A stretch of DNA of 64,000 bases from a virus (lineage: Duplodnaviria; Heunggongvirae; Uroviricota; Caudoviricetes), in the IMG/VR virus record IMGVR_UViG_3300032007_000013. One strand, written 5' to 3'. The translations under genes were made by a program, and so were the position numbers. Below, piece by piece: positions 22,899 through 50,646 of the stretch. Positions within the stretch are counted from its first letter, which is position 1, and each line of letters starts with the position of its first letter. The notes below the pieces were generated by a model. The model ran no database searches. It was not told the origin of the DNA and saw only the letters and a list, made by a program, of their open reading frames with translations.

Positions 22899-22927
22899 TT
22901 GAAAATTTTAAAAAAATATTATATAAT
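22899..22927 (+). promoter_or_regulatory. sigma70-like promoter TTGAAA-N17-TATAAT (family copy)
   Basis: TTGAAA 22899-22904, TATAAT 22922-22927. Confidence 0.55.
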
Positions 22928-22959: not shown

Positions 22960-23493
22960 ATGGCTAAAATGTATCTTCTATGTGGTATGCCGGGAGCGGG
23001 CAAAAGCACTTTCGCAAAAGAATTTGCTGAAAAAAATGGTTATAAATATGTTTCTATTGATGAACGTTATAAGGCTCACAATGGAAGTGAAAGTAATAGA
23101 GAAAATAAGTTTAAAATTTGGCTCGAATTTTATGAATTACTTCATTATTATGAAGTTGTTAATTGTGATATTGTAGTAGACACTAATGCTCCTACCCTTT
23201 TTGACCGCTCTGAATTCCTTAATTGGTTTCCTATTTTTGAACATCATCTTATTTGGATTGATGCTCCTATTGACCTTTGTCTTAAAAATAATAGAAATAG
23301 AGAAAGAGTTATTCCAGAAGATACAATGAAAAAATTATTCCTTAATTTTGAGGAACCTACAATGTTTACTTATACAATGTCTTGCCGGGCTCGTAGTCAG
23401 TGGAAAAGTGTTTCTATGATTAAAAATAATAATAATCATTTTGAAAATAGAATTACTTTATTTGGAAGTTTTCCGAAGGGAGTTAAAATTTAA
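22960..23493 (+). CDS. P-loop kinase (AAA_33 / polynucleotide-kinase-like), 177 aa, no TAG
   Basis: Walker A LLCGMPGAGKST. Small nucleotide/polynucleotide kinase fold. Confidence 0.65.
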   Translation: MAKMYLLCGMPGAGKSTFAKEFAEKNGYKYVSIDERYKAHNGSESNRENKFKIWLEFYELLHYYEVVNCDIVVDTNAPTLFDRSEFLNWFPIFEHHLIWIDAPIDLCLKNNRNRERVIPEDTMKKLFLNFEEPTMFTYTMSCRARSQWKSVSMIKNNNNHFENRITLFGSFPKGVKI

Positions 23494-24062
23494 TGGCACT
23501 TGAAGGCTTATATAAATGCTTTTCTCATTGGGGTAAAGAGGGCGGCACGTGGATTATTTCAGATACCCATTTTGGTGAAGATGACTTAAAACGTGCCTAT
23601 CCTAATCGTCCTGATGATGAAACGCTTCTTAAAATAATTAACCAAAAAGTCGGTAAAACTGGCACGCTCATTCACATTGGTGATGTTGGCGATATTGAAT
23701 TTGCCAAAAGGCTTAAAGGTTATAAAATTCTTATTTGCGGCAATCATGATAAAGGGCCTGAAAACTATGAAGGCATTTTTGATGAGGTATATGCCGGTCC
23801 ACTTCTTATTTCTCCTAAACTTATGCTTTGCCATGAACCTATTAAATATCCTTATGCTTATGTAATTCATGGACACGACCATTCTGGTTCTCATTTTGAA
23901 TACGGGCATATGAATGTTTGTTGTGATGTAATTGGTTATTCTCCTATTAATTTTAATCAATTTCTTAAATCAGGCAAACTTAAAGAGTGTGAAAATATTG
24001 AACGTGAAACGATTGATAAAGCAACGGAACGGGCTCATAAGAAAGGAGGTAAACGTAAATAA
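23493..24062 (+). CDS. calcineurin-like metallophosphoesterase, 189 aa, no TAG
   Basis: Motifs SDTHFG, GDVGD, GNHD, HGHDH. Confidence 0.7.
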   Translation: MALEGLYKCFSHWGKEGGTWIISDTHFGEDDLKRAYPNRPDDETLLKIINQKVGKTGTLIHIGDVGDIEFAKRLKGYKILICGNHDKGPENYEGIFDEVYAGPLLISPKLMLCHEPIKYPYAYVIHGHDHSGSHFEYGHMNVCCDVIGYSPINFNQFLKSGKLKECENIERETIDKATERAHKKGGKRK

Positions 24063-24763
24063 TGTTGACTACAATTCTTTCTATTGGATTTGGAATTGGG
24101 GCATTTTTAATTACTTATTTAGCTAAACTTATTTATCCATATCTCAATATTAAAAATGATAGTAATATTCATATTTATTATAAAAATGCTTATAATAATT
24201 GGTATGGTGAAGGTAAAAATCTTCCTACTTTTACATTTAATAATTTTCTTCAATTTTATAATTTAAATCCAGAAGAATGGCAGATAATGGATACCGATGG
24301 AAAAGTAGTTTTGCCGGGCCGTAAAATAGGACAAAAAGCATATTATGGTTATGAATATGATTATCAACCTATCTTTTTTACAAATATGTTTGAATGTAAA
24401 AAATATCGAGATTGGGCTACTGAAAAAAGAAATGAAATAAAAAAAGAAAAAGATAGTGAAAAGAGAAATAAAGCTACTGAAACTATCCTTAACGCAGTTC
24501 AAGAGGATATTAATAAAGCCCGTAAAGAAAATATAGATATTATTAGTCAAACTGAGAATGATTTAGCAGCAAATTTTAAAAACTTAACTGTAACAGAAAA
24601 GCAGCAATTCATAACTGATGATGGACAAACTATCCAGCAAGAAATGTATTGCGGGATTGCCAGCAACGGACATCATGTTCGAGTAATTCGTTAGTAGCAA
24701 ATTAATCAAGATGGAAGTTTAACAGATTTAGGTATTACATTTTTTGAAAGTAGAAAAGAATAA
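24062..24763 (+). CDS. membrane-anchored hypothetical protein (233 aa), paralog family A (also 24982 and 49860); 2 TAG near the C-terminus
   Basis: N-terminal TM. Shared motif TFNNFLQFYNLNPEEW. Confidence 0.5.
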
Positions 24764-24764
24764 A

Positions 24765-24980
24765 ATGATAAATGAGAAAATAAAAGATATAATTATATGG
24801 CTTGTTAATTTTATATTATTGTTTATTTCTATCATTATTGGTATGGCAATTATTTGTTCTGCTGTTTATTTTCCATTAAAATGGTTAAATTGGAATGGGG
24901 CATACCCGATTACAATATGTATAGGTGTATTATATATAATAATTATGATAATTAAATTAATAGCGGAGGCAATGGAATAA
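24765..24980 (+). CDS. small membrane protein (71 aa)
   Basis: Two TM helices. ATG 24765. Confidence 0.45.
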   Translation: MINEKIKDIIIWLVNFILLFISIIIGMAIICSAVYFPLKWLNWNGAYPITICIGVLYIIIMIIKLIAEAME

Positions 24981-24981
24981 T

Positions 24982-25695
24982 ATGGTTTGGATTTTATTAG
25001 GTATTTTTATTGGTATTCCTACTTTAATTTTAGGTGGGGCTGCGATATCTGTAAAAATTGACGAAATAAAAGAAAAAGATGAAAGACAAAAAAAGCAAGA
25101 TAGAGAAAATGAAGATGTTTATAATCGCATCTTACAGACTACTTATACTGATAAAGTTGCTAATATTAAAGGTGCCGTAAAAGAACTTCCTCAAATGACT
25201 TTTGATCGTTGGTTAACTTTTTATAATACCAATCCTGATAATTGGGATATGGAAAAATTTACGACACATCTTAATTTAGGATACACAGATTATAATTATC
25301 TTATTCCTACTTATTATAAAACTACTAGCCATAAAGGAAAAGATAAAGTAATAGAAAATACCGTAGGTATTCCTATCTTTTGGACGGATTGGCACGAAGC
25401 AGTAAAATTTCATAACTGGTATATTAATGAATATAAAAGAGGTAATGCTGCTGGTTATGAGAAGAAACGTGATGCTTCTATGGAACAGCTTGCCAAATTT
25501 TTACAGGAAGATATCGAGGAGCGTCGTGCTCAGATCTTAAAAGATTATGAAAAAGTAGTTGATCAGACTCAACGAGTAAAGGTTGAGGGTAGTGAGATCA
25601 CTCTAGATTTGAACACTCCTGCTCGTGATAAATCTGGAGAGGAAGAAATTGCTGCCATAATGGATAAACTTTTAGCGACCGGTGGCGGGCATTAA
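24982..25695 (+). CDS. membrane-anchored hypothetical protein (237 aa), paralog family A
   Basis: N-terminal TM. Motif TFDRWLTFYNTNPDNW. Confidence 0.5.
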   Translation: MVWILLGIFIGIPTLILGGAAISVKIDEIKEKDERQKKQDRENEDVYNRILQTTYTDKVANIKGAVKELPQMTFDRWLTFYNTNPDNWDMEKFTTHLNLGYTDYNYLIPTYYKTTSHKGKDKVIENTVGIPIFWTDWHEAVKFHNWYINEYKRGNAAGYEKKRDASMEQLAKFLQEDIEERRAQILKDYEKVVDQTQRVKVEGSEITLDLNTPARDKSGEEEIAAIMDKLLATGGGH

Positions 25696-25774
25696 TATCT
25701 AATTGAAAACTGCTGATTACCATTTTTTTACTAGATAATTGTAAGAAAATTGGTAATCGGCAGTTTCTTTTAAT

Positions 25775-25802
25775 TGAAAATTTTAAAAAAATATTATATA
25801 AT
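25775..25802 (+). promoter_or_regulatory. sigma70-like promoter TTGAAA-N16-TATAAT (family copy)
   Basis: TTGAAA 25775-25780, TATAAT 25797-25802. Confidence 0.55.
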
Positions 25803-25857
25803 ATATATGTAAGTTAAAGAAAAAGATAAATAAATTTTTTATTAGGAGCTGATACTT

Positions 25858-26475
25858 ATGTTTAAATTGAAACCTTCTTTTTTTCCTAAGCTGCATATTG
25901 AAATTGAACGTTGGAAATATCTTGAATCTATGGATGTTTATATTTCTTCTTATGGCCGTTTTAAAGATAAGAATGGAGAATTTCTTTCTGTTGGAGCAAG
26001 AAATAATTATCTTGTTTTCCGTGGAGAATCTGTTCATCGGCTCGTTCTTTCAACTTTTAAACCTGTTCCTGGTTGGGCTGGTTTGACTGTTGATCATCTT
26101 AATCATAATACTCGTGATAATAGAGTTAGCAATCTTGAATGGGTTACTCTTGCTGAAAATACAAGACGTGCTCGTAAAGATGAAAATGACAATACAAAAA
26201 CAATGCTTCAAAAAACGGAAGAAAAGATTAAAGTAACAGAAGAAATTAAAGCGGCGGAAGCAAAAGCTACTACTGCTAATGATGGTGTTTATGTTGTTCT
26301 TAATGGAGTTAAACTTCCCATTGATGCGGCAGGTCAGCTTATGAAGAATGATAAAAGTTTAAGCGTTGATAAAATTAATACTATTATTAAAAATATTAAA
26401 GAAAATGCCAAACGTGATTATGCTTATGGTAATTGGAAAATTAGAGGTATGGAAGCTGGTATTCCCAATAATTAA
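25858..26475 (+). CDS. HNH endonuclease (HNH_3 family), 205 aa, no TAG
   Basis: VHRLVLSTFKP...LTVDHLNHNTRDNRVSNLEWVTLAEN. Confidence 0.7.
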   Translation: MFKLKPSFFPKLHIEIERWKYLESMDVYISSYGRFKDKNGEFLSVGARNNYLVFRGESVHRLVLSTFKPVPGWAGLTVDHLNHNTRDNRVSNLEWVTLAENTRRARKDENDNTKTMLQKTEEKIKVTEEIKAAEAKATTANDGVYVVLNGVKLPIDAAGQLMKNDKSLSVDKINTIIKNIKENAKRDYAYGNWKIRGMEAGIPNN

Positions 26476-26493
26476 TTAAGGAGAAAAAAATAA

Positions 26494-26724
26494 ATGATAA
26501 AGAAACGACTTAATTATGAAACAGTAATTAATCCTAATGAATTTTGTAATGCACCAACGAATGAAGAAATAAAACAATTAATTGAAATTGCCAAACAAAA
26601 TCCTGATTGTATTGTTAGAGTTCATTGGTATGTAAAATATAATGGTTGGTTTGATAGAGCTGTCAGTGCGGATGATACTGTTGAAACTTTTAAAGCAAGA
26701 ATACCAAAAAGCTATGGGTTATGA
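26494..26724 (+). CDS. hypothetical protein (76 aa)
   Basis: ORF with RBS AAGGAG. Confidence 0.45.
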   Translation: MIKKRLNYETVINPNEFCNAPTNEEIKQLIEIAKQNPDCIVRVHWYVKYNGWFDRAVSADDTVETFKARIPKSYGL

Positions 26725-26963
26725 TGAATAAATTATTAAAAGATTTGCGTGACTGTAGTGGTTGCGGTTTTGCCGCTTGCCGTACAGCAATAGAATATTG
26801 CCAAATTCATAAAAATTGCTCTCCATTAGCATATTTAATGATAATGTATAATGGAGTAAAGTATAGTGATATAGATAAAGTAATTGTAGAAGAAACAAAA
26901 AGACTGCTTGATAATCCTCCATATTGGGCTAAAAATACTCAAATTTATGAGGTAATTAAATAA
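26721..26963 (+). CDS. Cys-rich hypothetical protein (80 aa)
   Basis: ORF; CSGCGFAAC motif. Confidence 0.45.
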   Translation: MMNKLLKDLRDCSGCGFAACRTAIEYCQIHKNCSPLAYLMIMYNGVKYSDIDKVIVEETKRLLDNPPYWAKNTQIYEVIK

Positions 26964-27196
26964 TGAAACTTTATAGAGTGCATAATATACCAGAATATAA
27001 CTTTTTGCCTGCATTTGTTGAAGTATTATTTGCTGAAAATGAAGAGCAAGCAGAAATAATTTATAAAGAATATGCGAAAAGATTCTGTGATGATTATTCT
27101 GATGATGGTGATCGTATTCGCATTGATGAACTTAAAATTGCCCCAGGAGTTTTTAGAAATTATTCTATATACTATATTCCAGATATAGATGATTAA
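26963..27196 (+). CDS. hypothetical protein (77 aa)
   Basis: ORF. Confidence 0.4.
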   Translation: MKLYRVHNIPEYNFLPAFVEVLFAENEEQAEIIYKEYAKRFCDDYSDDGDRIRIDELKIAPGVFRNYSIYYIPDIDD

Positions 27197-27337
27197 ATAT
27201 GAAAAGGAGTGATAAAATATGCTAAATAAAGATGGAGTTCGCGAGCTAGCTTAAAATTATAGGACAGATTTCGTTAATAAAATTTATTTAACTTCTATAT
27301 ATAATAGAAAAAAATATAGAAGGAGATACTTATTAAT

Positions 27338-28324
27338 ATGGCAAAAGCGATAGATTTAACTAATTAGGATTTTGGATATTTACATGTAATAGAAAGAGAT
27401 TATGAAATTTAGAAACAACATCCAAATGAAAGATAGGCTTGGTGGAAATGTGAATGCAAAGCCTGTGGAAAAATAAAATCTTTTAGAAGTTCTGTTATTA
27501 AAAAATCTAAATCTTGTGGTTGTGTAAAAAATTATGGACCATTAACTGAAAAAGCAAAAAATCATCTTAAAGAAATGGCTCAAAATAATAGTTTAAATTT
27601 AGTTGGTCAACGTTTTTCTCATTTGCTTGTTTTATCCTATGCTCCAGAAGAAAAATAGATTTATTATAATGGCAAACATAGACGGACTTGGCTATGTTAG
27701 TGTGATTGTGGCAATCAATGTTATGTAACGACAGAAAATTTAAGACGAGGAGATACTCGCTCTTGTGGCTGTATTACTCGTGAAAATAGAAGAAAACAAT
27801 TAAAAGATTTATCTGGATAGAGATTTGGCCATTTATTAGTATTAAATTATATTGGAACAATTAATGGAAATACTAAATATAAAGTTAAATGTGATTGTGG
27901 AAAAGAATATGAAATTTTTGCGAGTAATTTAACTCAAGGCTGCACTACTAGTTGTGGTTGTGTAAAAGAATCTCATGGAGAAAATAAAATTCATGAAATT
28001 TTAACTCAAAATAATATATTATTTATTAATTAGAAAGTTTTTCCAAATTTTAAATTTAGTGATACAAAAGGAACGCCAAAATTTGATTTTTATTTGCCAA
28101 CATTAAATACTTGTATTGAATATGATGGAGAACAACATTTTTCAAAAGTATTTAATTTTGATACAGACGAAGATTTCTAGAAGAGAAAATTTCATGACTT
28201 TGAGAAAAATTAGTATTGTTTAAATAATAATATAATTTTAATTAGAATTCCATATACACAATATACTTTTTTAAATATAAAAGATTTATTACCAGAAACA
28301 TCAAATTTTATTATTAAGGAGTGA
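27338..28324 (+). CDS. zinc-ribbon-repeat / DUF559-like endonuclease family protein (328 aa), ~10 in-frame TAG
   Basis: Three LxGQRFGHLLVL...WLCQCDCGN...SCGC repeats, then ...KFDFYLPTLNTCIEYDGEQHF...LIRIPY. TGA stop 28322-28324. Confidence 0.65.
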
Positions 28325-28330
28325 TTTTTA

Positions 28331-29584
28331 ATGTTAGATTCAACTGGGACTCGGCAACTCGCATATGTTGTTCTTGTTGATGGAATTGAACCTATTCCTG
28401 GATATGACAGAGTAGAACATGCTCTTATTGGTGGTTGGCGAGTAATTGTACAGAAGGACCAGTTTAAAGTTGGTGATCCCGCAATTTATTTTGAGATTGA
28501 TAGCCGTGTTCCGAATGATAAAGAATGTTTTGCTTTTCTTGAAAAGCGTAATTATAAGGTTAAGACCTTAAAAATGTGTAAGACTATTTCTCAGGGGCTT
28601 CTTATGCACGCAAGTGATTTCGGCTGGAAAGCTTGTCGGGCTATGGGTCCGCCTTTTGATGAACCTGCCTGTATTATTGACGATAAAAATCATTGTTATT
28701 ACGTCGATGATGAATCTCGTTTCTTAACTTCTATTCTTGGTGTAACTTATGCTGATGATGAAGATAATGCTCGTAAAGCTAAGGATATTGACCCTAATGC
28801 TAAATATCTTTCTATGAAGGCACGTCATAAGAGATTTTTTAATAATAAGTTTGTAAAGAAAATGTGGAAGTATCCTTGGTTTAGAAAATTTTGCTTTTTC
28901 TTTATGGGAAAGAAGAAAGATAAGCCTCGTGGGTTTCCTACCAAATTTCCTTTCGTGCATAAAAGTGATGAAGAGAGAGTTGAAAATATGCCATTTATCC
29001 TTAAAGATAAAGAACCTTGGGTTAAAACTCAAAAAATTGATGGAACTAGTTCAACCTATATTCTTGAACGAACTGGGAAAAATAAATTTGAAGAGTATGT
29101 ATGTTCTCGTAATGTACGGCAATTAACTCCTTCACAAAAAAATTATCATACTGATATTGAAGGAAATGTATATTGGATGATGGCAGATAAATATAAGATT
29201 TTTGATTTTCTTAAATCTTATCTTATTGAGAATAATCTTGATTATGTTTGTCTTCAGGGTGAAACTGCTGGACCTTCTTTACAGGGTAATCCTCATAAAT
29301 TTAAAGAGATTCGTTTCTTTGGTTATAATTTTATTCGTTCTGATACTGGGCGAATGAATAGTATTGAAGCCGCAAAAATTTGTAATATGGCAGGTATTCC
29401 TTGGGTTCCTATTGTTGATGAAGCATATATTCTCCCTGATGATATGGAGACTCTTAAACTTGACGCTGATGGTCCTTGTATTGTTGGAGAAGGGCCTCGT
29501 GAAGGTTGGGTTTATCGTAGTCTTGATGGTCAGCGTTCTTTTAAAAATGTAAGTAGAGAATATTTACTTCATTTTCATCAATAA
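28331..29584 (+). CDS. ATP-dependent RNA ligase (Rnl-family nucleotidyltransferase), 417 aa, no TAG, GC-richer
   Basis: Motif I KIDGTSS (KxDG) with downstream ligase-like motifs. RBS AAGGAGTG. Confidence 0.65.
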   Translation: MLDSTGTRQLAYVVLVDGIEPIPGYDRVEHALIGGWRVIVQKDQFKVGDPAIYFEIDSRVPNDKECFAFLEKRNYKVKTLKMCKTISQGLLMHASDFGWKACRAMGPPFDEPACIIDDKNHCYYVDDESRFLTSILGVTYADDEDNARKAKDIDPNAKYLSMKARHKRFFNNKFVKKMWKYPWFRKFCFFFMGKKKDKPRGFPTKFPFVHKSDEERVENMPFILKDKEPWVKTQKIDGTSSTYILERTGKNKFEEYVCSRNVRQLTPSQKNYHTDIEGNVYWMMADKYKIFDFLKSYLIENNLDYVCLQGETAGPSLQGNPHKFKEIRFFGYNFIRSDTGRMNSIEAAKICNMAGIPWVPIVDEAYILPDDMETLKLDADGPCIVGEGPREGWVYRSLDGQRSFKNVSREYLLHFHQ

Positions 29585-29676
29585 TAAATATTCTTTGGAC
29601 ACAACCTTGAAATAATATTATCTTATTTTTTATATATAATAGAATTAAATAATATTATTTCAAGGAGTTTTTAAAT

Positions 29677-30669
29677 ATGCCAAAAAAAATTGATTTAACA
29701 AATTAGATATTTGGAGAATGGTTAGTATTACGAGAAGCTACAAAAAATGAAAAATAGAATAAGCCTGGAAGTTACTGGTTATGTAGATGTTCATGTGGCA
29801 CAGAGAAAATTGTTAATGGACAGTCATTAAGAGAACATTAGAGTAATTCTTGTGGCTGTCAAACTGCTAAATATCTTAGTATTTCTCATAAAAATAAAAA
29901 TTGTATAGATATTTCTGGGCAACGTTTTGGTAAATTAATAGTTTTAAATAGAGACTATTAGGCAGAATAGTAGCATAAAAATAGTCATAATACATACTGG
30001 CTATGTCAATGTGATTGCGGGAATAAAATTAGTGTTATGAAAAGTTCTTTAACTATGGGAAAAACAATTTCTTGTGGATGCTATAGAAAAGAAATTGCTA
30101 GTAAAAATTTATCATAGATAAGCTCTAATAATTATGTTGATGAAACAAATAACAAATATGGAAAATTAATGGTTTTATATAAATCAAATATAAAACATCC
30201 AACAAGAGAAGGAGCTATTTGGCATTGTAAATGTGACTGTGGTAATGAATGCGATGTATTTGGGGCAGATTTAAGACAAGGTATTGTTACATCTTGTGGA
30301 TGTTTAGGTAAATCAAAAGGTGAATATAATATTGAACAATTATTAAAAAATGATAATATTTGTTATTCAAAAGAATATTCAGTAAAAATAAATAATATTT
30401 ATTATAGATTTGATTTTGCTATTTTTTTAGATAATTAGTTATTATATTTTATAGAATTTGATGGAAAATAGCATTATGAGCCATGCATTTTATTTGATAA
30501 TGAAATAGGACTTTTAAAAACACAAGAAAGAGATTAGCTAAAAAATCAATGGTGTAAAGATAATAATATTCCATTAATTCGTATTCCATATTGGCATTTA
30601 CAAGATTTATGTATAGAAGATTTATCATTAGAAACAAGTAAATTTATTGTAGGAGTAAAATATGAGTAA
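29677..30669 (+). CDS. zinc-ribbon-repeat / DUF559-like endonuclease family protein (330 aa), ~12 in-frame TAG
   Basis: MPKKIDLTNQIFGEWLVL...YWLCRCSCGTEK...SCGC x3, then YRFDFAIFLDNQLLYFIEFDGKQHY...LIRIPY. Confidence 0.65.
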
Positions 30670-30958
30670 ACTTGATATTGCTAAAGATATCATTAAAGGG
30701 TTCTATGTCTTAGCTGATTGCGGCATCTATAGTACTCGTAATATTATGGGAGATCCAATGACAACAATTTATAAAAATGATGGACTTACAATTGACATTT
30801 GTTACAATTATTCTTATTTTGAAGTTTTTGGACTTTCCAAAGCTGATTTTAGAGAATTGGAAAAATTTTATAATACATTAGATAAAGAGGAAATAGAAAA
30901 TTTTAGAGAATTGGAAAAATTTTATAATACATTAGATAAAGAGGAAATAGAAAAATGA
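30662..30958 (+). CDS. hypothetical protein (98 aa) with an exact 48-nt tandem repeat (FRELEKFYNTLDKEEIE x2)
   Basis: ORF. The direct repeat is at ~30851-30946. Confidence 0.45.
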   Translation: MSKLDIAKDIIKGFYVLADCGIYSTRNIMGDPMTTIYKNDGLTIDICYNYSYFEVFGLSKADFRELEKFYNTLDKEEIENFRELEKFYNTLDKEEIEK

Positions 30959-31131
30959 ACCAGTATGTTAAATTATTTGGCAGTTCTAGCAATGATACGT
31001 TAACCGATGAAATTAATACTTTTTTAAAAGAAAATAATTGTAAAATTATTTCTACACAATTAGCAATGAGTTCTAGCTTTCCAAATTATAAAACTATATT
31101 AATCGTTTGTGAGGAGATTGAAGAATGTTAA
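30955..31131 (+). CDS. small hypothetical protein (58 aa)
   Basis: ATG 30955 to TAA 31129-31131. Confidence 0.35.
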   Translation: MNQYVKLFGSSSNDTLTDEINTFLKENNCKIISTQLAMSSSFPNYKTILIVCEEIEEC

Positions 31132-31430
31132 ACCGCACTCAGTATAGAGCTTATTTACGAAAAAATAAAAAAAATAAAAATCTTTCTATTTGCCCCAAAT
31201 GCAATCATAAATCACTTTTTTACTCAACGGCAAGAAGCGAAAATGATACGGTTATTAAATGCGATATTTGTGGAGATATAGTTTTTGAAGGCCCTAACAT
31301 TACTCGTATGGTGCCGCCTGGGATATATCTCCCACTTCCTTTGGATATTTTTGAAATTGCTCTTAAAGCTCCCTCAGAAGAAGATAAAATTCAAGACGCA
31401 GAATATGTAGAAGTAAAAGAAAATAATTAA
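31125..31430 (+). CDS. small zinc-ribbon protein (101 aa)
   Basis: CPKC...CDIC motifs. Confidence 0.45.
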   Translation: MLNRTQYRAYLRKNKKNKNLSICPKCNHKSLFYSTARSENDTVIKCDICGDIVFEGPNITRMVPPGIYLPLPLDIFEIALKAPSEEDKIQDAEYVEVKENN

Positions 31431-31456
31431 TATATAATAAAGGAGAAAATTAAATA

Positions 31457-32347
31457 ATGAAAATTGGTCGTATGGTTGGCATTAGTGTAGTTGTACTGCT
31501 TTTGGTTTTTGTTCTGCTTAATTCATTTACAATTGTTCAATCTGGCTTTACAGGAGTCCCTGTAACTTTTGGTAAAGTAGCAGATTATACAGTTGGTGAA
31601 GGTCCGCATTTCCACTCTCCATTTACTGATATTATCAAAATGGATAACCATGTCTAGAAGCATACTATTACAATGAGTGCTTTCTCTAAGGACATCCAGG
31701 AAACCGCTGTTACTTATACTATTAACTATAAGATTAGCGAAAATGATGCTATGACAATTTATCGTACAATTGGTAAGAATTATTTTGAAACAGTCATTTC
31801 CCCTAATATTAGTGAAGCGGTAAAAACTGCCACAGCACATTATACAGCTGAAAGTTTGGTTAATAATCGTGATAAGTTGAGCCAGGAGATTGAAGTAATT
31901 TTAACTGATTTGCTTGAAAAGTACAAGATTATTATTGTCGGCACTTCCATTGAAGATCTAGACTTTACTGACGCTTTCACAAACGCAGTTGAAGCAAAAC
32001 AGGTCGCGGCACAGAATAAATTGAAAGCACAGACTGAGCAGGAACAGCAAACAATGGAAGAGGAAGCAAAGGCAAAACGTGCTATTATTCAGGCTAACGC
32101 AGAAGCAGAGCAGGCTAAAATTGCGGCAAATGCTGATTTGGAAGTAGTAAAAATTCAGGCCGAAGCAAGTCTTTATGCTGGCCAGCGTGAAGCTGAAATG
32201 AATCAGCGTATCGCAGAAGCTTTAACTCCACAGTTGATTAGTTATTATTGGATTAAACAGTGGGATGGTGAGTTACCTGATACTATGCTTGGAGAAGGAG
32301 CAGATGTAATGCTCGCACTGGATACAGAAACTAATACTTTAAAGTAA
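31457..32347 (+). CDS. SPFH/band-7 (prohibitin/HflC-like) domain membrane protein, 296 aa, 1 in-frame TAG
   Basis: N-terminal TM plus SPFH-type core and a Q/E/A-rich coiled coil. ORFs 31457-31657 and 31673-32347 are in the same frame and joined by TAG. Confidence 0.6.
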
Positions 32348-32352
32348 ATATA

Positions 32353-32390
32353 CATTTATAAGAGAGGGGTAACCCTCTCTTATTTGATTT
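32353..32390 (+). terminator. rho-independent terminator
   Basis: AGAGAGGGGTAACCCTCTCT followed by a T-run. Confidence 0.7.
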
Positions 32391-32441
32391 TTTAAAAAAA
32401 ATATTATATAATATTTGTAAGGGAAAGGAGACGAATATTAT

Positions 32442-32588
32442 ATGAATATTTTTAATACACCAGAAATTTGGCTATATATTTCCACATGGGCTTTTGGAGC
32501 TATATGTGGATTAATATTCGCTTGGGCCATGGAAATAGAGAATCAAAAGTATTTAAAAAATAAGGAAAAGAAAAAAGATGATAAATAA
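32442..32588 (+). CDS. small membrane peptide (48 aa)
   Basis: ATG after AAAGGAGACG. One TM. Confidence 0.35.
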   Translation: MNIFNTPEIWLYISTWAFGAICGLIFAWAMEIENQKYLKNKEKKKDDK

Positions 32589-33018
32589 TTTTGATAGAGA
32601 ATATGCTTTTTTAAGTAATTTTTATAATAGTCCTATGATAGGATTTGATGGAATTAATTATCCAACAGTTGAGCATGCTTTTCAAGCACAAAAAACTTTA
32701 AATTATAAGGAAAGATTAATGATAGCAAATGCTCTTACCCCTGGAAAAGCAAAACGATTAGGCCGTCAAGTTCAATTACGTGATGGTTGGAATAATATAA
32801 AGAATGAAGTCATGTATAATTATGTATTTCATAAATTTTCACAAAATCCAGATTTAAAACAAAAACTTATAGACACGAATTTTGAATACCTCGAAGAAGG
32901 AAATACTTGGCATGATAATTATTGGGGAAATTGTTATTGTGCGAAATGTCAATATATCAAAGGTGAAAATCATCTTGGAAAAATTCTTATGCAAGTAAGA
33001 GATGAATTATTAAAATGA
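32578..33018 (+). CDS. NADAR (DUF1768/YbiA-like) domain protein, 146 aa
   Basis: FLSNFY...VEHAFQAQK... signature of the NADAR family. Confidence 0.6.
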   Translation: MINNFDREYAFLSNFYNSPMIGFDGINYPTVEHAFQAQKTLNYKERLMIANALTPGKAKRLGRQVQLRDGWNNIKNEVMYNYVFHKFSQNPDLKQKLIDTNFEYLEEGNTWHDNYWGNCYCAKCQYIKGENHLGKILMQVRDELLK

Positions 33019-33287
33019 TTGATATAATTCGATATCCTGATAAACCAGTTTTAAAGTATACATGTTTATGCTCTTTATGCGGCACTCAATGGATGTGTGA
33101 TAAAGCCGACTTAAAGTGGAAAGATGATTTTTTTATTGGAACGTGTCCTATTTGTGGATTTCATAATTATTGTTATAATTATGAAAAAGAAAAAAGATGG
33201 ACTGATTTTGAATTAAAGAATTATAATAGCTGTTATGAAATTCCTATATTAAATAGAGAGAGGATTGAAAACAATGACTATTGCTGA
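33015..33287 (+). CDS. small zinc-ribbon protein (90 aa)
   Basis: CLCSLCG...CPICG motifs. Confidence 0.45.
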   Translation: MIDIIRYPDKPVLKYTCLCSLCGTQWMCDKADLKWKDDFFIGTCPICGFHNYCYNYEKEKRWTDFELKNYNSCYEIPILNRERIENNDYC

Positions 33288-33738
33288 ATGTCAAGTTGAG
33301 ACACAAAAGCATATTGAAAAAGTAAGAAAATATATCCGTTTTCTTACTGATAAATTAACTACTCGTGGAGTAAATCATGATGCGGCAAAATTAGAATCGC
33401 CAGAAGTAGAATTATTTGCTGAACATACTGAAAAATTAAAAAATCTTGAATATAATAGCGAAGAATATAAAGCAAGTTTAGCGGCATTAAAACCTGCTCT
33501 TGACCATCATTATGCTACATATCGTCATCATCCAGAACATTTTGCTGATGGAGTAAATGATATGAATTTAATTGATTTATGCGAAATGGTGGCAGACTGG
33601 AAAGCTGCTAGCGAAAGACAAAATAATGGAAATTTAATTAAATCTATTGAAATTAATGCTAAGCGATTTAATATTGATTCTCAATTAAAACAAATCTTAT
33701 TAAATACAGCAAAGTTATATGATGAAGAGGAAAAATAA
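33274..33738 (+). CDS. His-rich putative metal-dependent hydrolase (HD-like?), 154 aa
   Basis: NHDAAK...HHYATYRHHPEHF...DLCEMVADW; arrangement of His/Asp reminiscent of small HD phosphohydrolases. Confidence 0.4.
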   Translation: MTIAECQVETQKHIEKVRKYIRFLTDKLTTRGVNHDAAKLESPEVELFAEHTEKLKNLEYNSEEYKASLAALKPALDHHYATYRHHPEHFADGVNDMNLIDLCEMVADWKAASERQNNGNLIKSIEINAKRFNIDSQLKQILLNTAKLYDEEEK

Positions 33739-33862
33739 ATATTATTAGTATATTTTTATTGGTCTTATGATTCTATTAATTATTGGAGAAAGTATTAATA
33801 ATAGTGATTAAAAAATATTGTAGCTTATTAATCTAATAAATAAGTTACAATATTTTTTTAAT

Positions 33863-33890
33863 TGAAATTTATAAAAAAATATTATATAAT
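33863..33890 (+). promoter_or_regulatory. sigma70-like promoter TTGAAA-N16-TATAAT (family copy)
   Basis: TTGAAA 33863-33868, TATAAT 33885-33890. Confidence 0.5.
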
Positions 33891-33923
33891 ATTTATAGAA
33901 AATAAAAAAGGATTGGTTTAATT

Positions 33924-34133
33924 ATGTTTAATTTTATTAAAAAATTATATCTATTTATTGCTAAAGTATTCGTGGTAATGCTAGGTGGCTCAGGAGTAAT
34001 GCTTAGTCTTTACTGTCCTTTATCTTTATTTTTAGGGCATGATGCTTTTTTCCCATATTTAATGGGAGGCATTGGCGGAGTGGTTTATACACTTGGAATC
34101 ATAGACAAACTTTTAGATGGAGATTTTGAATAA
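33924..34133 (+). CDS. small membrane protein (69 aa)
   Basis: Two TM helices. Confidence 0.4.
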   Translation: MFNFIKKLYLFIAKVFVVMLGGSGVMLSLYCPLSLFLGHDAFFPYLMGGIGGVVYTLGIIDKLLDGDFE

Positions 34134-34309
34134 TGAATAGTAATATTTGTTTTATTATTTGTGATATTTGGCTTATTATTTTAAATACTTATTTTGTAAT
34201 TAATAAGACAGGCCATTGGCAATTTAATCTTGTTGCTGCTATTTGTTTAACTATTTCTGCTAGTCTTTTAGCAACTCAAGAAATAAAAAGAAGAAAGGAT
34301 AAAAAATAA
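34133..34309 (+). CDS. small membrane protein (58 aa)
   Basis: ATGA-coupled to the upstream gene. Hydrophobic. Confidence 0.35.
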   Translation: MNSNICFIICDIWLIILNTYFVINKTGHWQFNLVAAICLTISASLLATQEIKRRKDKK

Positions 34310-34434
34310 TGCCAGTTCATGATGAAGAATGCCAATTGTTGATGAAAATAAATAAAAATTTTGGTCAATAAATAATAATATTAGAATTCTAAATTTTATA
34401 TAATATAGAATAATATGAAAAAGGAGATTTTATT

Positions 34435-35265
34435 ATGGGTTATATATATAAAATTTGGAATGAAGATAATGAAAAAATTTATATAGGATAGACAAGTGTT
34501 GGAATCAAAGCAAGATGGTCTTAGCATTTAAAAAATTATTTAACTAATGACGCTGTGCTTTATATGGCTATGCGTAAACACGGGGCAGGTATTTTCCATA
34601 TCGAATTAATAGAAGAATGTGATAATAATTTATTAAATGAGCGAGAAAAATATTGGATTAGTCAATATGATAGTTATAAACATGGATATAATTCTACCCC
34701 TGGAGGAACAGCTTTATCATCTGGAAAATAGTTTTCACGAGTAAATGATAAATTAATAAAATTATTATGGGATGAAGGTCTTTCTATTTCTTAGATTTGT
34801 GAAAAAACACAAAATAGTAATACAACAATTAGAGAACATTTAATAGATTATAAGAATTATTCTATTAAAGAATCTAATAATAGAGGATATAAGCAGAGTG
34901 GCTTGAATAAAAGAATAGCTGTTACTTAGTGGGATTTAAAAGGTAATTTTATAAATACATACACTTCATTAAGCGAAGCAAGTGAAAAAACTAAAATCCC
35001 ATTAGCTAATATTGGAAAATGTATTCAAAAAGAAAGACAAACTGCTGGAGGTTATTATTGGACAAAAGATACAGAAATGCCAACTATAAAAATAAAACCT
35101 AAAATTTATTAGTATGACTTAAATGGAAATTTAATTCATATTTATGATACGAAGCAAGAAGCCGCTAATTTTTTAAAATTAGATAGTGGAAGTATTGCTA
35201 AAGTATGCAAAGGCAAAAGAAAAACTTGTGGTGGTTTTATCTGGAAAGAAATTTATGAAGAATAA
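34435..35265 (+). CDS. GIY-YIG homing endonuclease (276 aa) with 7 in-frame TAG
   Basis: GYIYKIWNEDNEKIYIGQT...ARWSQH...EREKYWISQY, plus C-terminal DNA-binding repeats. RBS AAAGGAGA. Confidence 0.75.
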
Positions 35266-35282
35266 AAAGGACATAATATAAA

Positions 35283-36071
35283 ATGATACATGATGAATTA
35301 GGAAAAAGAATGAAAAAGTACGAAGCAATCCCTCAAATCAGTTTAATGCGGCGAACTCCTGTCGCTATTCGTATTGATGGAAAAGCTTTCCATACTTTTA
35401 CCAAGCACCTACAGAAACCTTATGATAAACTTTTCCATGAGGCCATGGAAAATACTATGAAGTATCTTTGTGAAAATATCCAAAACTGTGTATTTGGATA
35501 CACACAATCTGATGAAATTACTCTTATCCTTACAGACTATGAAACTTTAAATACGGATGCTTGGTTTGGTTATGAAGTCCAAAAACTTTGTTCAATTAGT
35601 GCGAGTATGGCAACTATGAAATTTAATCAAGAATTTCAAAGACTTGTTGAAGATTATATTTGGGAATGGACTCATAGTATGGTGCCACAATCTGTTGGGC
35701 TATGGGAAAAAGAAAAAACATATCATGCTCATTTAAAAGATTGTATCGCACGAGGGGCAATGTTTGATGCTCGTTGTTTTAACATTCCAAAAGAAGAAGT
35801 AGTAAATCTTGTTCTTTGGCGGCAGTTCGACGCTGAACGCAATTCTATTAACTCTATGGGGCAAAGTTATTTTTCTCATAAGGAACTTCAAAATAAAAAT
35901 TGCGGCGAAATCATTAAAATGCTCGAAGATAAAGGTGTCTTTTGGAATAACCATTCTAATGCTTTTAAGCATGGAGTTGCTTGTGTAAATAATGGCGATG
36001 GTTGGGAATTAGATTATAATATGCCAATGCTTAAAGGAGAAGACAGGGATTATCTTGAAAGGTTGATTTAA
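35283..36071 (+). CDS. Thg1-like 3'-5' nucleotidyltransferase (tRNA-His guanylyltransferase family), 262 aa, no TAG
   Basis: RIDGKAFHTFTK...GYTQSDEITLIL..., which I recognise as Thg1/TLP-like. Confidence 0.65.
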   Translation: MIHDELGKRMKKYEAIPQISLMRRTPVAIRIDGKAFHTFTKHLQKPYDKLFHEAMENTMKYLCENIQNCVFGYTQSDEITLILTDYETLNTDAWFGYEVQKLCSISASMATMKFNQEFQRLVEDYIWEWTHSMVPQSVGLWEKEKTYHAHLKDCIARGAMFDARCFNIPKEEVVNLVLWRQFDAERNSINSMGQSYFSHKELQNKNCGEIIKMLEDKGVFWNNHSNAFKHGVACVNNGDGWELDYNMPMLKGEDRDYLERLI

Positions 36072-36530
36072 GTGAAAGTATTTTACAGTTATGAAGATGA
36101 TACATATTATTGCCGAGAGCAAATTGATAATCAAACTATTGAACTTGGAATGAATTGTAATTATTCTTCTAAGGGAGAAGATACTACTTGGTGGAATATA
36201 TATATTAGTGTTCATAATAAGCGTAAAGATATGTATGATAATATGGATAAGCATATCATTACTGGGAAAAATCCTTTTGCCACTTTTTCAAAAGCAAGAG
36301 AAATGCTTTATGAATTAGAAGCCTATGTTTTGCAGCAAGAGCTTCTATTCCGGCCTAAGTGCAATAAGGTAGTTTTCTTTTGCACTTGGGTCGATAATCG
36401 TCGTCGTGATGCTTATTATCGTGTTTTATCTAAAATGGGATATGATTGGGGATTAACTCCTATTTTAAAACATAAATGTATTATGAAAGTATACACCAGA
36501 GAAGATTTAAACCCCGAAATTAAGGTATGA
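36072..36530 (+). CDS. hypothetical protein (152 aa), GTG start
   Basis: ORF directly following the Thg1-like gene. No TAG. Confidence 0.4.
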   Translation: MKVFYSYEDDTYYCREQIDNQTIELGMNCNYSSKGEDTTWWNIYISVHNKRKDMYDNMDKHIITGKNPFATFSKAREMLYELEAYVLQQELLFRPKCNKVVFFCTWVDNRRRDAYYRVLSKMGYDWGLTPILKHKCIMKVYTREDLNPEIKV

Positions 36531-36534
36531 TATT

Positions 36535-37377
36535 ATGTTAGATGAATTTACTTATGAATATTGTAGATGCGAGACTGAAAAAGATTATAATATTCTTCAT
36601 CGAGTAGAGGAACATCTTATTGAAATTATTGAGCAACGAGAATTAGATATTCATCAAATTTTTTTTATTGCTTTAGAAGGAAGCCAAAACTATGGGCTTG
36701 ATTTGTTTGATAGTGATGTCGATACTAAAATGATTGTTCTTCCTAGCCTTAATGATATTGTTTGGAATAAAAAACCAATAGCAATGACACATATCAGAGC
36801 AAATGAAGAACATACTAGTATTACTGATATTCGTAATTATTTTTCTTCTTTGCGGAAACAGAATATTAATTTTATTGAAACTCTTTTTTCTCCTTGGATT
36901 ATTGTAAATGCAGAATATAGAAACGAATTTGAACAATTATTTAATAATAGAGAATTAATTGCTCGTTATGATGAATGTAAAGCTGTAAAGACTATTGGCG
37001 GAATCTCTATTGATAGATATAAAGCAATCCAAAATCTTAATTCTAAAAAAGCAGATGTAATTGAAAGATATGGATATGACGGAAAAGCAGTTAGTCATAT
37101 TATTAGAATTTATGCTTTTTTAAAACGATATATTCGCGATTTTCCCTACCAAACTTGTATTATCCCCGATGAAGAAGAAAAAGAAATTATTTTATTTTTT
37201 AAACAGAATTTTGCTGATAAAGAAGAAGGATTAAGCGTTGCTAAAAATATGTTCGATGCTATCCAAAGAGAAGTTGATGATTATGTGAATACTCATGAAG
37301 AAACTATTAATTCAAAAGCAGAATCTATTTTAGAGAATGTACAATATTATATGGTTAAAAAGGGATTAGGAATGTAA
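36535..37377 (+). CDS. Pol-beta-superfamily nucleotidyltransferase (280 aa), no TAG
   Basis: LEGSQNYGLDLFDSDVDTKMIVL matches the GS-x(9-13)-DxD NTase signature. Confidence 0.55.
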   Translation: MLDEFTYEYCRCETEKDYNILHRVEEHLIEIIEQRELDIHQIFFIALEGSQNYGLDLFDSDVDTKMIVLPSLNDIVWNKKPIAMTHIRANEEHTSITDIRNYFSSLRKQNINFIETLFSPWIIVNAEYRNEFEQLFNNRELIARYDECKAVKTIGGISIDRYKAIQNLNSKKADVIERYGYDGKAVSHIIRIYAFLKRYIRDFPYQTCIIPDEEEKEIILFFKQNFADKEEGLSVAKNMFDAIQREVDDYVNTHEETINSKAESILENVQYYMVKKGLGM

Positions 37378-39008: not shown

Positions 39009-39026
39009 AAAAGGAGATAAAAAAAT

Positions 39027-46270: not shown

Positions 46271-46323
46271 ATATATGTAAGATAAAGAAAGGAATGATTT
46301 CCTATGTGCAGGTGTTTTAATTG

Positions 46324-47160: not shown

Positions 47161-47162
47161 AG

Positions 47163-48485: not shown

Positions 48486-48668
48486 ATGGAATGGAATGAA
48501 AAAATTAAAAAAGGCATGGAATTGATTGCCGCAGGTTGCTCCGAAGAGGGTGGATTTGCCATTTGCCGAATGGGAAAATGTCCATTTGGAGATTATTGCT
48601 GGGCAATCCAAAAAGATAAAAAAGATGGAGCAGATATTTTAGAGCCCTGGTATTGGAATAAAATTTAA
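48486..48668 (+). CDS. small Cys-containing protein (60 aa)
   Basis: ORF. Confidence 0.4.
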   Translation: MEWNEKIKKGMELIAAGCSEEGGFAICRMGKCPFGDYCWAIQKDKKDGADILEPWYWNKI

Positions 48669-48684
48669 GGGAGTTGATACAATA

Positions 48685-50525: not shown

Positions 50526-50646
50526 AAGGAATGGCTAATATCCATTCCTTTTTTCAATAAAGAAATTTTTTATTTGAAAAAATATAAAAAATATATTATA
50601 ATATTTATAGAAAATAAAAATTATATATATAAAGGAGTTTTTATTT

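What the first reader, a model, noticed from the sequence alone, without database searches (positions are those of the whole stretch)
22960..37377. Extensive RNA repair / tRNA maintenance toolkit
Within about 15 kb the phage encodes an ATP-dependent RNA ligase (28331-29584, KIDGTSS), a Thg1-like 3'-5' nucleotidyltransferase (35283-36071), a Pol-beta NTase (36535-37377), two P-loop polynucleotide-kinase-like kinases (22960-23493, 52243-52728), four calcineurin-like phosphoesterases (23493-24062, 42629-43501, 51007-51762, 53121-53693), RNase H and a NADAR protein. There are also 5 or more tRNAs of its own, two with introns. Kinase plus phosphatase plus ligase is the T4 Pnk/Rnl logic for reversing host anticodon-nuclease damage. 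A Thg1-like enzyme adds the capacity to rebuild tRNA 5' ends. All of these genes are TAG-free, i.e. expressible before suppression is established.
Basis: partly seen in the sequence, partly recalled or inferred. Interest (0 to 1): 0.75.

Follow-up and report, generated by a model that had tools for sequence, protein, structure and literature searches.

The report
Phage RNA end-repair gene set
An uncultivated giant phage that reads the stop codon TAG as an amino acid carries an unusually complete set of enzymes predicted to trim, refill and rejoin broken RNA (probably tRNA); this kind of toolkit is already known in large phages, but here it uses a different mix of parts plus an undescribed partner protein.

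Summary
The ligase is an Rnl5-type (Naegleria/Deinococcus-like) ATP-dependent RNA ligase, not a DNA ligase. The Thg1 hit is a bacterial-type Thg1-like protein (TLP).

The genes sit behind one shared near-consensus sigma-70-like promoter and are almost TAG-free (1 TAG in 3745 codons). TAG-rich homing endonucleases and a 20%-GC island are inserted between them and are absent from the closest relatives.

In an unbiased survey of 47 TLP lineages from viral contigs, the protein families most often found within 10 kb of TLP were three metallophosphoesterase families, RlaP, Rnl5-like ligase, a polynucleotide-kinase-like kinase and SPFH. In some phages a single fused kinase-phosphatase-ligase protein takes their place.

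Two additions:
- An unannotated GNAT-fold protein always lies directly downstream of TLP.
- A Ro60/TROVE-like protein lies next to the tRNA array.

RNA break repair with nucleotide restoration is the best explanation, but no substrate is shown. The concept was already published for bacteria and jumbo phages, so this is a variant of a known kind. Several listed genes (NADAR, YAcAr-MPE2, RNase H) may serve other roles.

The parts
615..5573 (+). tRNA array: Gln(UUG), Gln(CUG), suppressor(CUA, Gln-derived), Leu(CAA) with a 49-nt anticodon-loop insert, an odd tRNA-like gene with an 8-nt loop, Leu(UAA) with a 375-nt intron, and Lys(UUU). These are candidate substrates or spare parts.
   Evidence: ARAGORN; Rfam tRNA hits; intron precisely absent from L095/L096
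6912..8411 (+). Ro60/TROVE plus vWA-like RNA-binding protein (Pfam DUF2828 + DUF7788), TAG-free, next to the tRNA array
22899..22927 (+). Shared promoter TTGAAA-N17-TATAAT in front of the kinase1 operon
22960..23493 (+). Kinase1: P-loop kinase of the PNK/PSTK clade (predicted RNA 5'-OH kinase)
23493..24062 (+). MPE1: metallophosphoesterase (phrog_547; aq_1665/PdeM-like). Its start overlaps the kinase1 stop by 1 nt.
25774..25802 (+). Shared promoter in front of the HNH ... Rnl5 ... SPFH transcription unit
27338..28324 (+). Inserted freestanding homing-endonuclease-like gene (9 TAG), absent from L001/L002. An interruption, not a pathway part.
28331..29584 (+). Rnl5-type ATP-dependent RNA ligase: N-terminal OB domain, an insert of about 100 aa, then the nucleotidyltransferase domain (K235). 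Mosaic: the 5' 450 nt are 91-93% identical to relatives, the rest is diverged.
29677..30669 (+). Second inserted endonuclease gene of the same family (10 TAG), absent from relatives
31457..32347 (+). SPFH/Band-7 membrane protein (1 TAG), in the same predicted transcription unit as the ligase; followed by a terminator at 32358-32383
   Evidence: also next to TLP in Fusobacterium phage FNU3
32578..33018 (+). NADAR protein (peripheral; absent from L001)
33265..33738 (+). DUF5662 protein, conserved upstream of TLP in close relatives; function unknown
33862..33890 (+). Shared promoter in front of the s33924 - TLP - GNAT-like - RlaP unit
34435..35265 (+). Inserted GIY-YIG/NUMOD1 homing endonuclease (6 TAG) immediately upstream of TLP, absent from relatives
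35283..36071 (+). Bacterial-type Thg1-like protein (TLP), predicted templated 3'-5' RNA polymerase
36072..36530 (+). Uncharacterised GNAT-fold protein, invariably directly downstream of TLP. No Pfam hit above threshold (only a sub-threshold Imm59 match) and no PHROG hit.
36535..37377 (+). RlaP-family Pol-beta nucleotidyltransferase (predicted addition of 1-2 nt at RNA 3' ends)
   Evidence: biochemistry of the family in PMC12776372
41956..42348 (+). YAcAr (SLOG) nucleotide-binding protein, a conserved pair with MPE2
42629..43501 (+). MPE2: metallophosphoesterase (phrog_1649), among the most frequent TLP neighbours
50574..50602 (+). Shared promoter in front of the MPE3 - kinase2 - MPE4 unit
51007..51762 (+). 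MPE3: ApaH/PrpA/lambda-phosphatase-like metallophosphoesterase, the class found in bacterial Pnkp
52243..52728 (+). Kinase2: P-loop kinase matching the bacterial Pnkp kinase domain
53121..53693 (+). MPE4: metallophosphoesterase in the same PHROG family as MPE1 (phrog_547)

Best explanation
This is an early-expressed, multi-operon RNA (most likely tRNA) break-repair set with four predicted steps.
1. End healing: the two PNK-like kinases phosphorylate 5'-OH ends, and one or more metallophosphoesterases remove 2',3'-cyclic or 3'-phosphates.
2. Nucleotide restoration: RlaP adds one or two nucleotides to a 3'-OH, and the TLP refills a recessed 5' end in the 3'-5' direction, using the opposite strand as template.
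3. Sealing: the Rnl5-type ligase seals the resulting 3'-OH/5'-PO4 nick.
4. Accessory roles: SPFH, the Ro60-like protein and the GNAT-fold TLP partner act as scaffolding, quality-control or specificity factors.

The genes are readable in the standard code and sit behind host-type promoters, so they can act before the phage suppressor tRNA takes effect. That is the period when host nucleases aimed at tRNA would strike.

Shown: domain identities, intact motifs, gene linkage across lineages, the shared promoter motif and the TAG-free coding.
Inferred: all substrates, the order of steps, the timing, and the link to host anticodon nucleases.
For: - Domain and motif identity.
- Unbiased neighbourhood survey: 80 viral loci, 47 TLP lineages at 85% identity, +-10 kb. 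After TLP itself, the clusters present in most loci were MPE1 (14 lineages), MPE2 (15), RlaP (17 with profile search), a lambda-phosphatase-like MPE (13), Rnl5-like ligase (13), kinase (15) and SPFH (8). All are on the TLP strand. 30 of 47 lineages have at least one of these families, and 18 of 47 have at least three.
- Fusion evidence: in several lineages the neighbour is one ~740-aa protein joining kinase, phosphatase and an Rnl1-like ligase (TIGR04075 at 1.8e-20 and 2.5e-23; TIGR02308 at 5.6e-8). In locus L065 it is followed directly by RlaP.
- Ligase substitution: one distant locus pairs TLP with RtcB and a putative CCA-adding enzyme; both were identified from their sequences only, without a domain search.
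- Compact cassette: in relatives, TLP - GNAT-like - RlaP - YAcAr - MPE2 - Rnl5 lie within about 7 kb.
- Shared promoter: 15 hits against 0.46 expected, sitting in front of each toolkit unit.
- TAG content: 1 in 3745 codons.
- Literature: Thg1 linked to polynucleotide kinase and RNA ligase genes and proposed for RNA repair (PMC2904730); jumbo-phage repair sets with RlaP, Thg1, kinases and calcineurin-like phosphatases (PMC7824862); RlaP adds 1-2 NMP to damaged RNA 3' ends (PMC12776372).
Against: - No substrate or activity is shown for any protein here.
- Characterised Rnl5 enzymes seal duplex nicks. Their natural substrates are unknown, and they are not known to repair anticodon loops (my background knowledge).
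- The genes are spread over about 30 kb in at least five transcription units, not one operon.
- 17 of 47 TLP lineages have none of these families within 10 kb.
- Metallophosphoesterases and P-loop kinases are functionally promiscuous.
- MPE2 is always paired with a SLOG-domain protein, which points to nucleotide or ADP-ribose signalling.
- The survey loci have no matched control regions from the same genomes, so enrichment is shown by rank only.
- The host and its nucleases are unknown.
Confidence: 0.6

Rival explanations
1. The genes are a mixed bag of early genes rather than one pathway. The phosphoesterases, YAcAr/SLOG and NADAR degrade or sense host nucleotide and ADP-ribose defence signals. 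The kinases serve nucleotide metabolism, being close to a PurZ/PurA-like gene. The TLP only matures or maintains phage tRNAs, for example G-1 of tRNA-His. The ligase and RNase H handle RNA-DNA junctions in replication. The clustering would then reflect shared early regulation.
For: - YAcAr-MPE2 is an invariant pair.
- NADAR, YAcAr and calcineurin-like phosphodiesterases are discussed as anti-signal enzymes in jumbo phages (PMC7824862).
- The MPE3-kinase2-MPE4 unit lies next to an adenylosuccinate-synthetase-like gene.
- The same promoter also drives unrelated genes.
- 17 of 47 TLP lineages lack the other families nearby.
- Phage tRNA-His genes occur in four TLP loci.
Against: - Kinase-phosphatase-ligase fusions followed by RlaP sit next to TLP in other phages.
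- Kinase2 matches the Pnkp kinase domain.
- Three of the four phage tRNA-His genes in TLP loci have a G immediately upstream of position 1, i.e. G-1 is genome-encoded, so a TLP is not obviously needed for it.
- The families that rank highest near TLP are exactly the RNA-end enzymes, not replication genes.
Confidence: 0.27
2. The healing and sealing enzymes splice the phage's own intron-containing tRNAs, in a protein-dependent pathway like the eukaryotic Trl1 kinase / cyclic phosphodiesterase / ligase route, rather than countering host damage.
For: - Two tRNAs carry anticodon-loop insertions.
- The 49-nt insert seems too short for a self-splicing group I intron (my judgement).
- The 375-nt intron has no Rfam group I match even at E<=1.
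- Thg1, kinase and ligase links to tRNA splicing were proposed in PMC2904730.
Against: - No splicing endonuclease was found.
- Close relatives that lack the 375-nt intron, and the whole Leu(CAA) block, still carry the toolkit.
- TLP-linked toolkits occur in loci without intron-bearing tRNAs.
- A divergent group I intron can escape Rfam.
Confidence: 0.05
3. The TLP edits mismatched 5' acceptor-stem ends of phage-encoded tRNAs, as in amoebal mitochondrial tRNA 5' editing. These would include the TAG suppressor, which has C1 opposite U72 when aligned to its tRNA-Gln parent.
For: The suppressor tRNA(CUA) is a tRNA-Gln derivative whose position 1 is C where the parent has A (read directly). In ARAGORN's fold the Leu(CAA) gene has a T-T pair at 1:72.
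Against: Among 104 distinct tRNAs in TLP loci, acceptor positions 1-3 show 3, 3 and 0 mismatches, no more than positions 4-7. A weak or open 1:72 pair is normal for tRNA-Gln recognition (my background knowledge).
Confidence: 0.03

Closest known systems
   Same: Same logic and several of the same families: an ATP-dependent RNA ligase, polynucleotide kinase, phosphoesterases, RlaP, Thg1, a Ro/TROVE protein and phage tRNAs. SPFH as a scaffold is part of that syntax as I recall it.
   Different: - The ligase is Rnl5-type, whereas the passages I read name Rnl1, Rnl2 and RtcB.
- The phosphatases are metallophosphoesterases rather than the typical HAD enzymes.
- Thg1 is described there as sporadic, whereas here TLP is the hub of a conserved cassette with a GNAT-fold partner.
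- The host phage is TAG-recoded and the set is TAG-free.
Phage T4 Pnk + Rnl1 repair of PrrC-cleaved tRNA-Lys
   Same: Kinase plus 3'-end phosphatase plus ATP-dependent RNA ligase, encoded by a phage.
   Different: - T4 Pnk is a kinase-HAD fusion, and Rnl1 is specialised for anticodon loops.
- Here kinase and phosphoesterase are separate genes of other families.
- The ligase is a different class.
- Two nucleotide-adding enzymes, TLP and RlaP, are present.
Bacterial Pnkp (kinase / lambda-phosphatase-like / ligase, e.g. Clostridium thermocellum; usually with Hen1)
   Same: Kinase2 matches the Pnkp kinase domain, and MPE3 is of the ApaH/lambda-phosphatase class. Other TLP-carrying phages hold a fused kinase-phosphatase-ligase protein.
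   Different: In the window the domains are split into separate genes. No Hen1 methyltransferase was seen among the genes examined. The sealing ligase is a stand-alone Rnl5.
Naegleria gruberi / Deinococcus radiodurans RNA ligases (Rnl5 family; PDB 5cot)
   Same: N-terminal OB domain followed by the nucleotidyltransferase domain, a KxDG lysine, and no C-terminal domain. E = 1.2e-25 to 5cot; TIGR02306 at 1.4e-25.
   Different: An insert of about 100 aa lies between the two domains. The score is below the NCBIfam trusted cutoff (89.9 against 151 bits). The 3' two-thirds of the gene is a diverged allele flanked by endonuclease genes.
Bacillus thuringiensis Thg1-like protein (PDB 4kgk)
   Same: E = 6.8e-47. 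The RIDG and SDE metal-binding motifs are kept, and the eukaryotic HINNLYN motif is absent.
   Different: An insertion of about 30 residues lies between the two conserved halves. It is phage-encoded and coupled to a GNAT-fold gene.

Membership tests
Rnl5 ATP-dependent RNA ligase | N-terminal OB domain preceding the nucleotidyltransferase domain, with no C-terminal domain | tested here: met
   PF21189 at residues 11-92 (4e-21), PF09414 at 228-405 (5e-13). phmmer to 5cot aligns both domains. The protein ends at residue 417.
Rnl5 ATP-dependent RNA ligase | Motif I lysine (KxDG) and motifs IV and V | tested here: met
   KIDG at 235, EGWV at 391, FK at 404
Rnl5 ATP-dependent RNA ligase | Seals 3'-OH/5'-PO4 nicks in which the 3'-OH strand is RNA | not testable with these tools
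   Needs an enzyme assay
Thg1-like protein (bacterial TLP) | Thg1 palm domain with conserved metal-binding carboxylates | tested here: met
   PF04446 1.6e-32; RIDG (D32) and SDE (76-78)
Thg1-like protein (bacterial TLP) | Closer to TLPs than to eukaryotic Thg1, and lacking the HINNLYN motif | tested here: met
   4kgk (BtTLP) 6.8e-47 against human Thg1 3otb 5.6e-4; no HINN or NLYN string
Thg1-like protein (bacterial TLP) | Template-dependent 3'-5' addition to 5'-truncated tRNA | not testable with these tools
   Needs an enzyme assay
RlaP (PF10127) nucleotidyltransferase | Match to the family model above its cutoff, and the Pol-beta GS...DxD motif | tested here: met
   27.9 bits against cutoff 23, N-terminal half only. 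GSQNYGLDLFDSDVD at 49. hhalign probability 96% to a cluster that hits RlaP at 1.6e-20.
RlaP (PF10127) nucleotidyltransferase | Gene proximity to an RNA ligase | tested here: met
   The ligase lies 7 kb upstream in the window, within about 4 kb in L088/L089, and directly adjacent to a Pnkp-ligase fusion in L065.
T4-type Pnk (kinase-HAD phosphatase fusion) | HAD (DxDxT) 3'-phosphatase domain fused to the kinase | tested here: not met
   Both kinases are single-domain proteins of 161-177 aa. No HAD hit among the ORFs scanned.
Bacterial Pnkp | Kinase, lambda-phosphatase-like and ligase domains in one polypeptide | tested here: not met
   They are separate genes in the window. The fusion exists in other TLP loci.
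Bacterial Pnkp | Hen1 methyltransferase partner | not tested
   None was seen among the scanned ORFs, but the window was not searched exhaustively for it
Ro60/TROVE | TROVE helical-repeat domain plus vWA domain | tested here: met
Ro60/TROVE | Partner Y RNA encoded nearby | tested here: inconclusive
   No Y RNA or YrlA hit in Rfam at E<=1 in 1-6000. Conserved noncoding stretches and odd tRNA-like genes are present.
GNAT acetyltransferase (for 36072-36530) | GNAT fold | tested here: met
GNAT acetyltransferase (for 36072-36530) | Sequence match to an acetyltransferase family, or an acetyl-CoA binding motif | tested here: not met
   No Acetyltransf Pfam hit in any of 46 members, even at E<=1. Only a weak Imm59 match in 17 of 46. 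The conserved motif is WVDNRRRDAYY.

The most novel reading that the evidence does not exclude
TLP, its obligate GNAT-fold partner and RlaP form a gap-filling RNA repair machine not yet demonstrated in any system. After a host nuclease removes nucleotides from a tRNA (RloC-style excision or stem truncation), RlaP extends the 3' side. TLP, guided or gated by the GNAT-fold subunit, rebuilds the 5' side against the template strand. The Rnl5 ligase then seals the duplex nick. This would give Rnl5 ligases and bacterial-type TLPs their first physiological pathway.
Probability: 0.2. Interest if true: 0.7.

Novelty: new variant of a known kind. Interest (0 to 1): 0.45.

Why it matters
Natural roles for bacterial-type TLPs and Rnl5 ligases have not, to my knowledge, been demonstrated, and RlaP was characterised biochemically only recently. 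A phage lineage in which all three are linked to end-healing enzymes, co-regulated, and kept free of the recoded stop codon is a concrete, testable system for nucleotide-restoring RNA repair. It also bears on how recoded phages protect translation early in infection. The always-adjacent GNAT-fold protein is a new candidate TLP cofactor. Repeated invasion of these genes by homing endonucleases and an intein, together with allele swapping in the ligase and RlaP, is consistent with an arms-race locus, although no selection test was run. The general idea is already in the literature, so a specialist would not be greatly surprised.

Tried and rejected
- Megablast of the region against INPHARED phages gave no match.
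- The tRNA 5'-editing idea is unsupported: no excess of mismatches at acceptor positions 1-3 in 104 tRNAs from TLP loci.
- I looked for a tRNA-like or Y-like RNA near SPFH, the ligase and TLP. Rfam at E<=5 over 22-45 kb gave only noise, and over 1-6 kb only the tRNAs.
- Folding the 1346-2110 noncoding stretch and the Leu(CAA) gene gave no convincing signal.
- PDB sequence searches for RlaP, MPE2 and the Ro60-like protein gave nothing useful. Only the fold search resolved the Ro60-like protein.
- MPE1 and MPE4 share a PHROG family but show no significant pairwise similarity.
- The GNAT-fold family has no relative in GTDB genomes, so it gives no host clue.
- Burroughs & Aravind 2016 could not be opened. 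Statements about SPFH as a repair scaffold rest on my memory of its abstract.
- A literature search for DUF2828 was uninformative.
- A first promoter pattern with the wrong spacer found nothing. The corrected one did.

Full report
**Context.**
The window is a low-GC (about 30%) stretch of an uncultivated large phage. Reading TAG as a sense codon raises summed + strand ORF length (ORFs of at least 80 aa) from 9,844 to 14,975 aa and joins fragments into long genes, for example a 1,625-aa ORF with 13 TAGs. A suppressor tRNA(CUA) is present. The closest relatives are viral contigs, one of them 239.5 kb long, with TLP 95-96% identical. No cultured phage is close.

**Observation.**
- The ligase has an N-terminal PHA02142 OB domain and a C-terminal RNA_ligase domain. 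It aligns over both with the Naegleria RNA ligase (5cot, 1.2e-25) and matches the Deinococcus DRB0094 model (1.4e-25). It is therefore an Rnl5-class RNA ligase, with an extra insert of about 100 aa.
- The Thg1 domain protein is far closer to the Bacillus thuringiensis TLP (6.8e-47) than to eukaryotic Thg1 (about 5e-4).
- The Pol-beta enzyme passes the RlaP cutoff. Its cluster is 96% hhalign-probable to a cluster that hits RlaP at 1.6e-20.
- Both kinases fall in the PNK/PSTK/Pnkp clade.
- All four phosphoesterases carry DxH/GD/GNH[DE]. MPE3 is ApaH/lambda-phosphatase-like. MPE1 and MPE4 belong to one PHROG family.
- There are seven tRNAs, two with anticodon-loop insertions.

**Regulation.**
The toolkit genes hold 1 TAG in 3,745 codons. 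The interspersed endonuclease and island genes hold 65 in 2,714, using TAG for 47% of Gln positions.

A near-consensus promoter, TTGAAA-N17-TATAAT, with a conserved spacer gives 15 matches against 0.46 expected for its core. It sits in front of:
- kinase1 (22899);
- the HNH...Rnl5...SPFH unit (25774);
- the unit ending in TLP - GNAT-like - RlaP (33862);
- the unit with YAcAr-MPE2 (40914);
- the MPE3 - kinase2 - MPE4 unit (50574);
- RNase H (59299, one mismatch, TTGACA).

A strong terminator follows SPFH. Gene junctions overlap or abut. This supports co-regulated expression that does not depend on TAG suppression. That the expression is early is an inference.

**Comparison with relatives.**
Two close relatives (L001, L002) keep the same order at 85-97% protein identity. 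They lack three endonuclease genes of one unannotated family, the GIY-YIG gene directly upstream of TLP, and a 3.5-kb 20%-GC island (radical SAM/SPASM plus two GT8 genes). All of these are precise insertions in the window.

The ligase is mosaic. Its first 450 nt are 91-93% identical to relatives, and the rest is a diverged allele, giving 56% protein identity overall. In L001 the GNAT-like and RlaP genes are both only 58% identical to the window, whereas in L002 both are 96-97%. In a more distant phage the ligase carries an intein directly after motif I. In others an HNH gene abuts the ligase.

**Is it a functional set?**
I fetched 80 viral loci encoding TLPs of 47-60% identity, called ORFs under the best-fitting code, and clustered all 2,653 proteins.
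- The clusters present in most loci, after TLP itself, were MPE1, MPE2, RlaP and a lambda-phosphatase-like MPE. The kinase, SPFH and the ligase come a little further down, among replication and nucleotide-metabolism clusters.
- With profile searches over 47 TLP lineages: RlaP 17, kinase 15, MPE2 15, MPE1 14, lambda-phosphatase-like MPE 13, ligase 13, SPFH 8.
- All are on the TLP strand. 18 lineages have at least three of these families, and the window has the most, seven.
- In several lineages the neighbour is a ~740-aa kinase - phosphatase - Rnl1-like ligase fusion, followed in locus L065 by RlaP.
- One locus pairs TLP with RtcB and a putative CCA-adding enzyme, both read from sequence only.
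- Relatives found through the GNAT-like protein show a compact cassette of TLP - GNAT-like - RlaP - YAcAr - MPE2 - Rnl5.

The limitation is that there are no matched control windows, so the enrichment is by rank only.

**New components.**

**What is known.**
- Thg1 genes linked to polynucleotide kinase, Macro and RNA ligase genes, with a proposed RNA repair role including in a phage, were reported in 2010 (PMC2904730).
- Jumbo-phage repair sets with ligases, kinases, HAD or occasionally calcineurin-like phosphatases, RlaP, CCA-adding enzyme, sporadic Thg1 and Ro/TROVE were surveyed in 2021 (PMC7824862).
- RlaP adds 1-2 nucleotides to damaged RNA 3' ends (PMC12776372).

The finding therefore fits an established concept. 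The differences are the Rnl5 ligase, metallophosphoesterase-based healing, a TLP-centred cassette with a GNAT-fold partner, TAG-free coding in a recoded phage, and heavy invasion by selfish elements.

**Verdict.**
The best explanation is RNA break repair with nucleotide restoration (confidence 0.6). The main rival (0.27) is a mixed set of early counter-defence and nucleotide enzymes in which only some members repair RNA. Splicing of the phage's own tRNA introns (0.05) and tRNA 5' editing (0.03) are unlikely. No activity, substrate or host nuclease has been shown.

Noticed in passing
window 48625-49854 (with 46321-48044): An adenylosuccinate-synthetase-like gene (Pfam 4.6e-21). It could be a PurZ-type enzyme for a 2-aminoadenine genome rather than PurA. 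It and its two upstream neighbours recur together in 14 TLP loci.
   Followed up: partly
window 4911-5372 (intron 4946-5320): tRNA-Leu(UAA) carries a 375-nt anticodon-loop intron that is precisely absent from relatives L095/L096. It has no Rfam group I match and contains two 59-nt direct repeats 162 nt apart.
   Followed up: partly
window 2714-3995: This block holds an HNH-type endonuclease gene (2800-3528, 8 TAG) and a tRNA-Leu(CAA) with a 49-nt hairpin inserted in its anticodon loop (3604-3728). The whole block is missing from L095.
   Followed up: partly
window 2637-2709: The TAG suppressor tRNA(CUA) is clearly derived from the phage tRNA-Gln(CUG). Aligned to that parent it has C at position 1 opposite U72, with G73 and an encoded CCA.
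   Followed up: partly
window 1346-2110: A 765-nt noncoding, relatively GC-rich stretch after tRNA-Gln(CUG), 85.7% conserved in L095. It has no Rfam hit and a folding z-score of -1.85. It is a possible large structured RNA near the Ro60-like gene.
   Followed up: partly
window 37764-40917: A 20%-GC, TAG-rich island encoding a radical SAM/SPASM enzyme and two GT8 glycosyltransferases, inserted directly after RlaP. It is absent from L001/L002 but present in a different order in L096.
   Followed up: partly
window 27338-28324, 29677-30669, 43594-44349: Three paralogous TAG-rich genes with repeated Cys-rich (W.C.C.CG...SCGC) units and a C-terminal nuclease-like region. The first of them, the only one scanned, has no Pfam hit. 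Each is a precise insertion next to a toolkit gene, so they behave as freestanding homing endonucleases.
   Followed up: partly
window-wide; e.g. 2168, 4374, 22899, 25774, 33862, 40914, 46242, 48424, 50574: A highly conserved promoter-like element, TTGAAA-N17-TATAAT, with an almost invariant A/T spacer. All copies are on the + strand in front of TAG-free gene blocks, which suggests a host with sigma-70-type promoter recognition.
   Followed up: yes
L003 4054-6414: The Rnl5-like ligase of a distant TLP phage carries an intein of about 334 aa with a LAGLIDADG motif, inserted directly after the KMHG nucleotidylation motif.
   Followed up: no
L096 1-11500: In one 44.9-kb metagenomic contig the SPFH - DUF5662 - TLP - partner - RlaP - GT8 - rSAM block lies directly upstream of the tRNA/Ro60 block. 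This is either a real rearrangement that brings the RNA genes together or a chimeric assembly.
   Followed up: partly
window 24062-24763 and 24982-25695: Two adjacent paralogous predicted membrane proteins (about 26% identical, shared F..FY..NP[ED].W motif) with no family assignment, directly downstream of kinase1-MPE1.
   Followed up: no
window 17780-22657 (- strand): A 1,625-aa ORF that is readable only with 13 TAG codons as sense. It belongs to an opposite-strand block of TAG-containing ORFs (about 11.3-22.7 kb) that separates the tRNA/Ro60 region from the toolkit. None of these ORFs was annotated.
   Followed up: no
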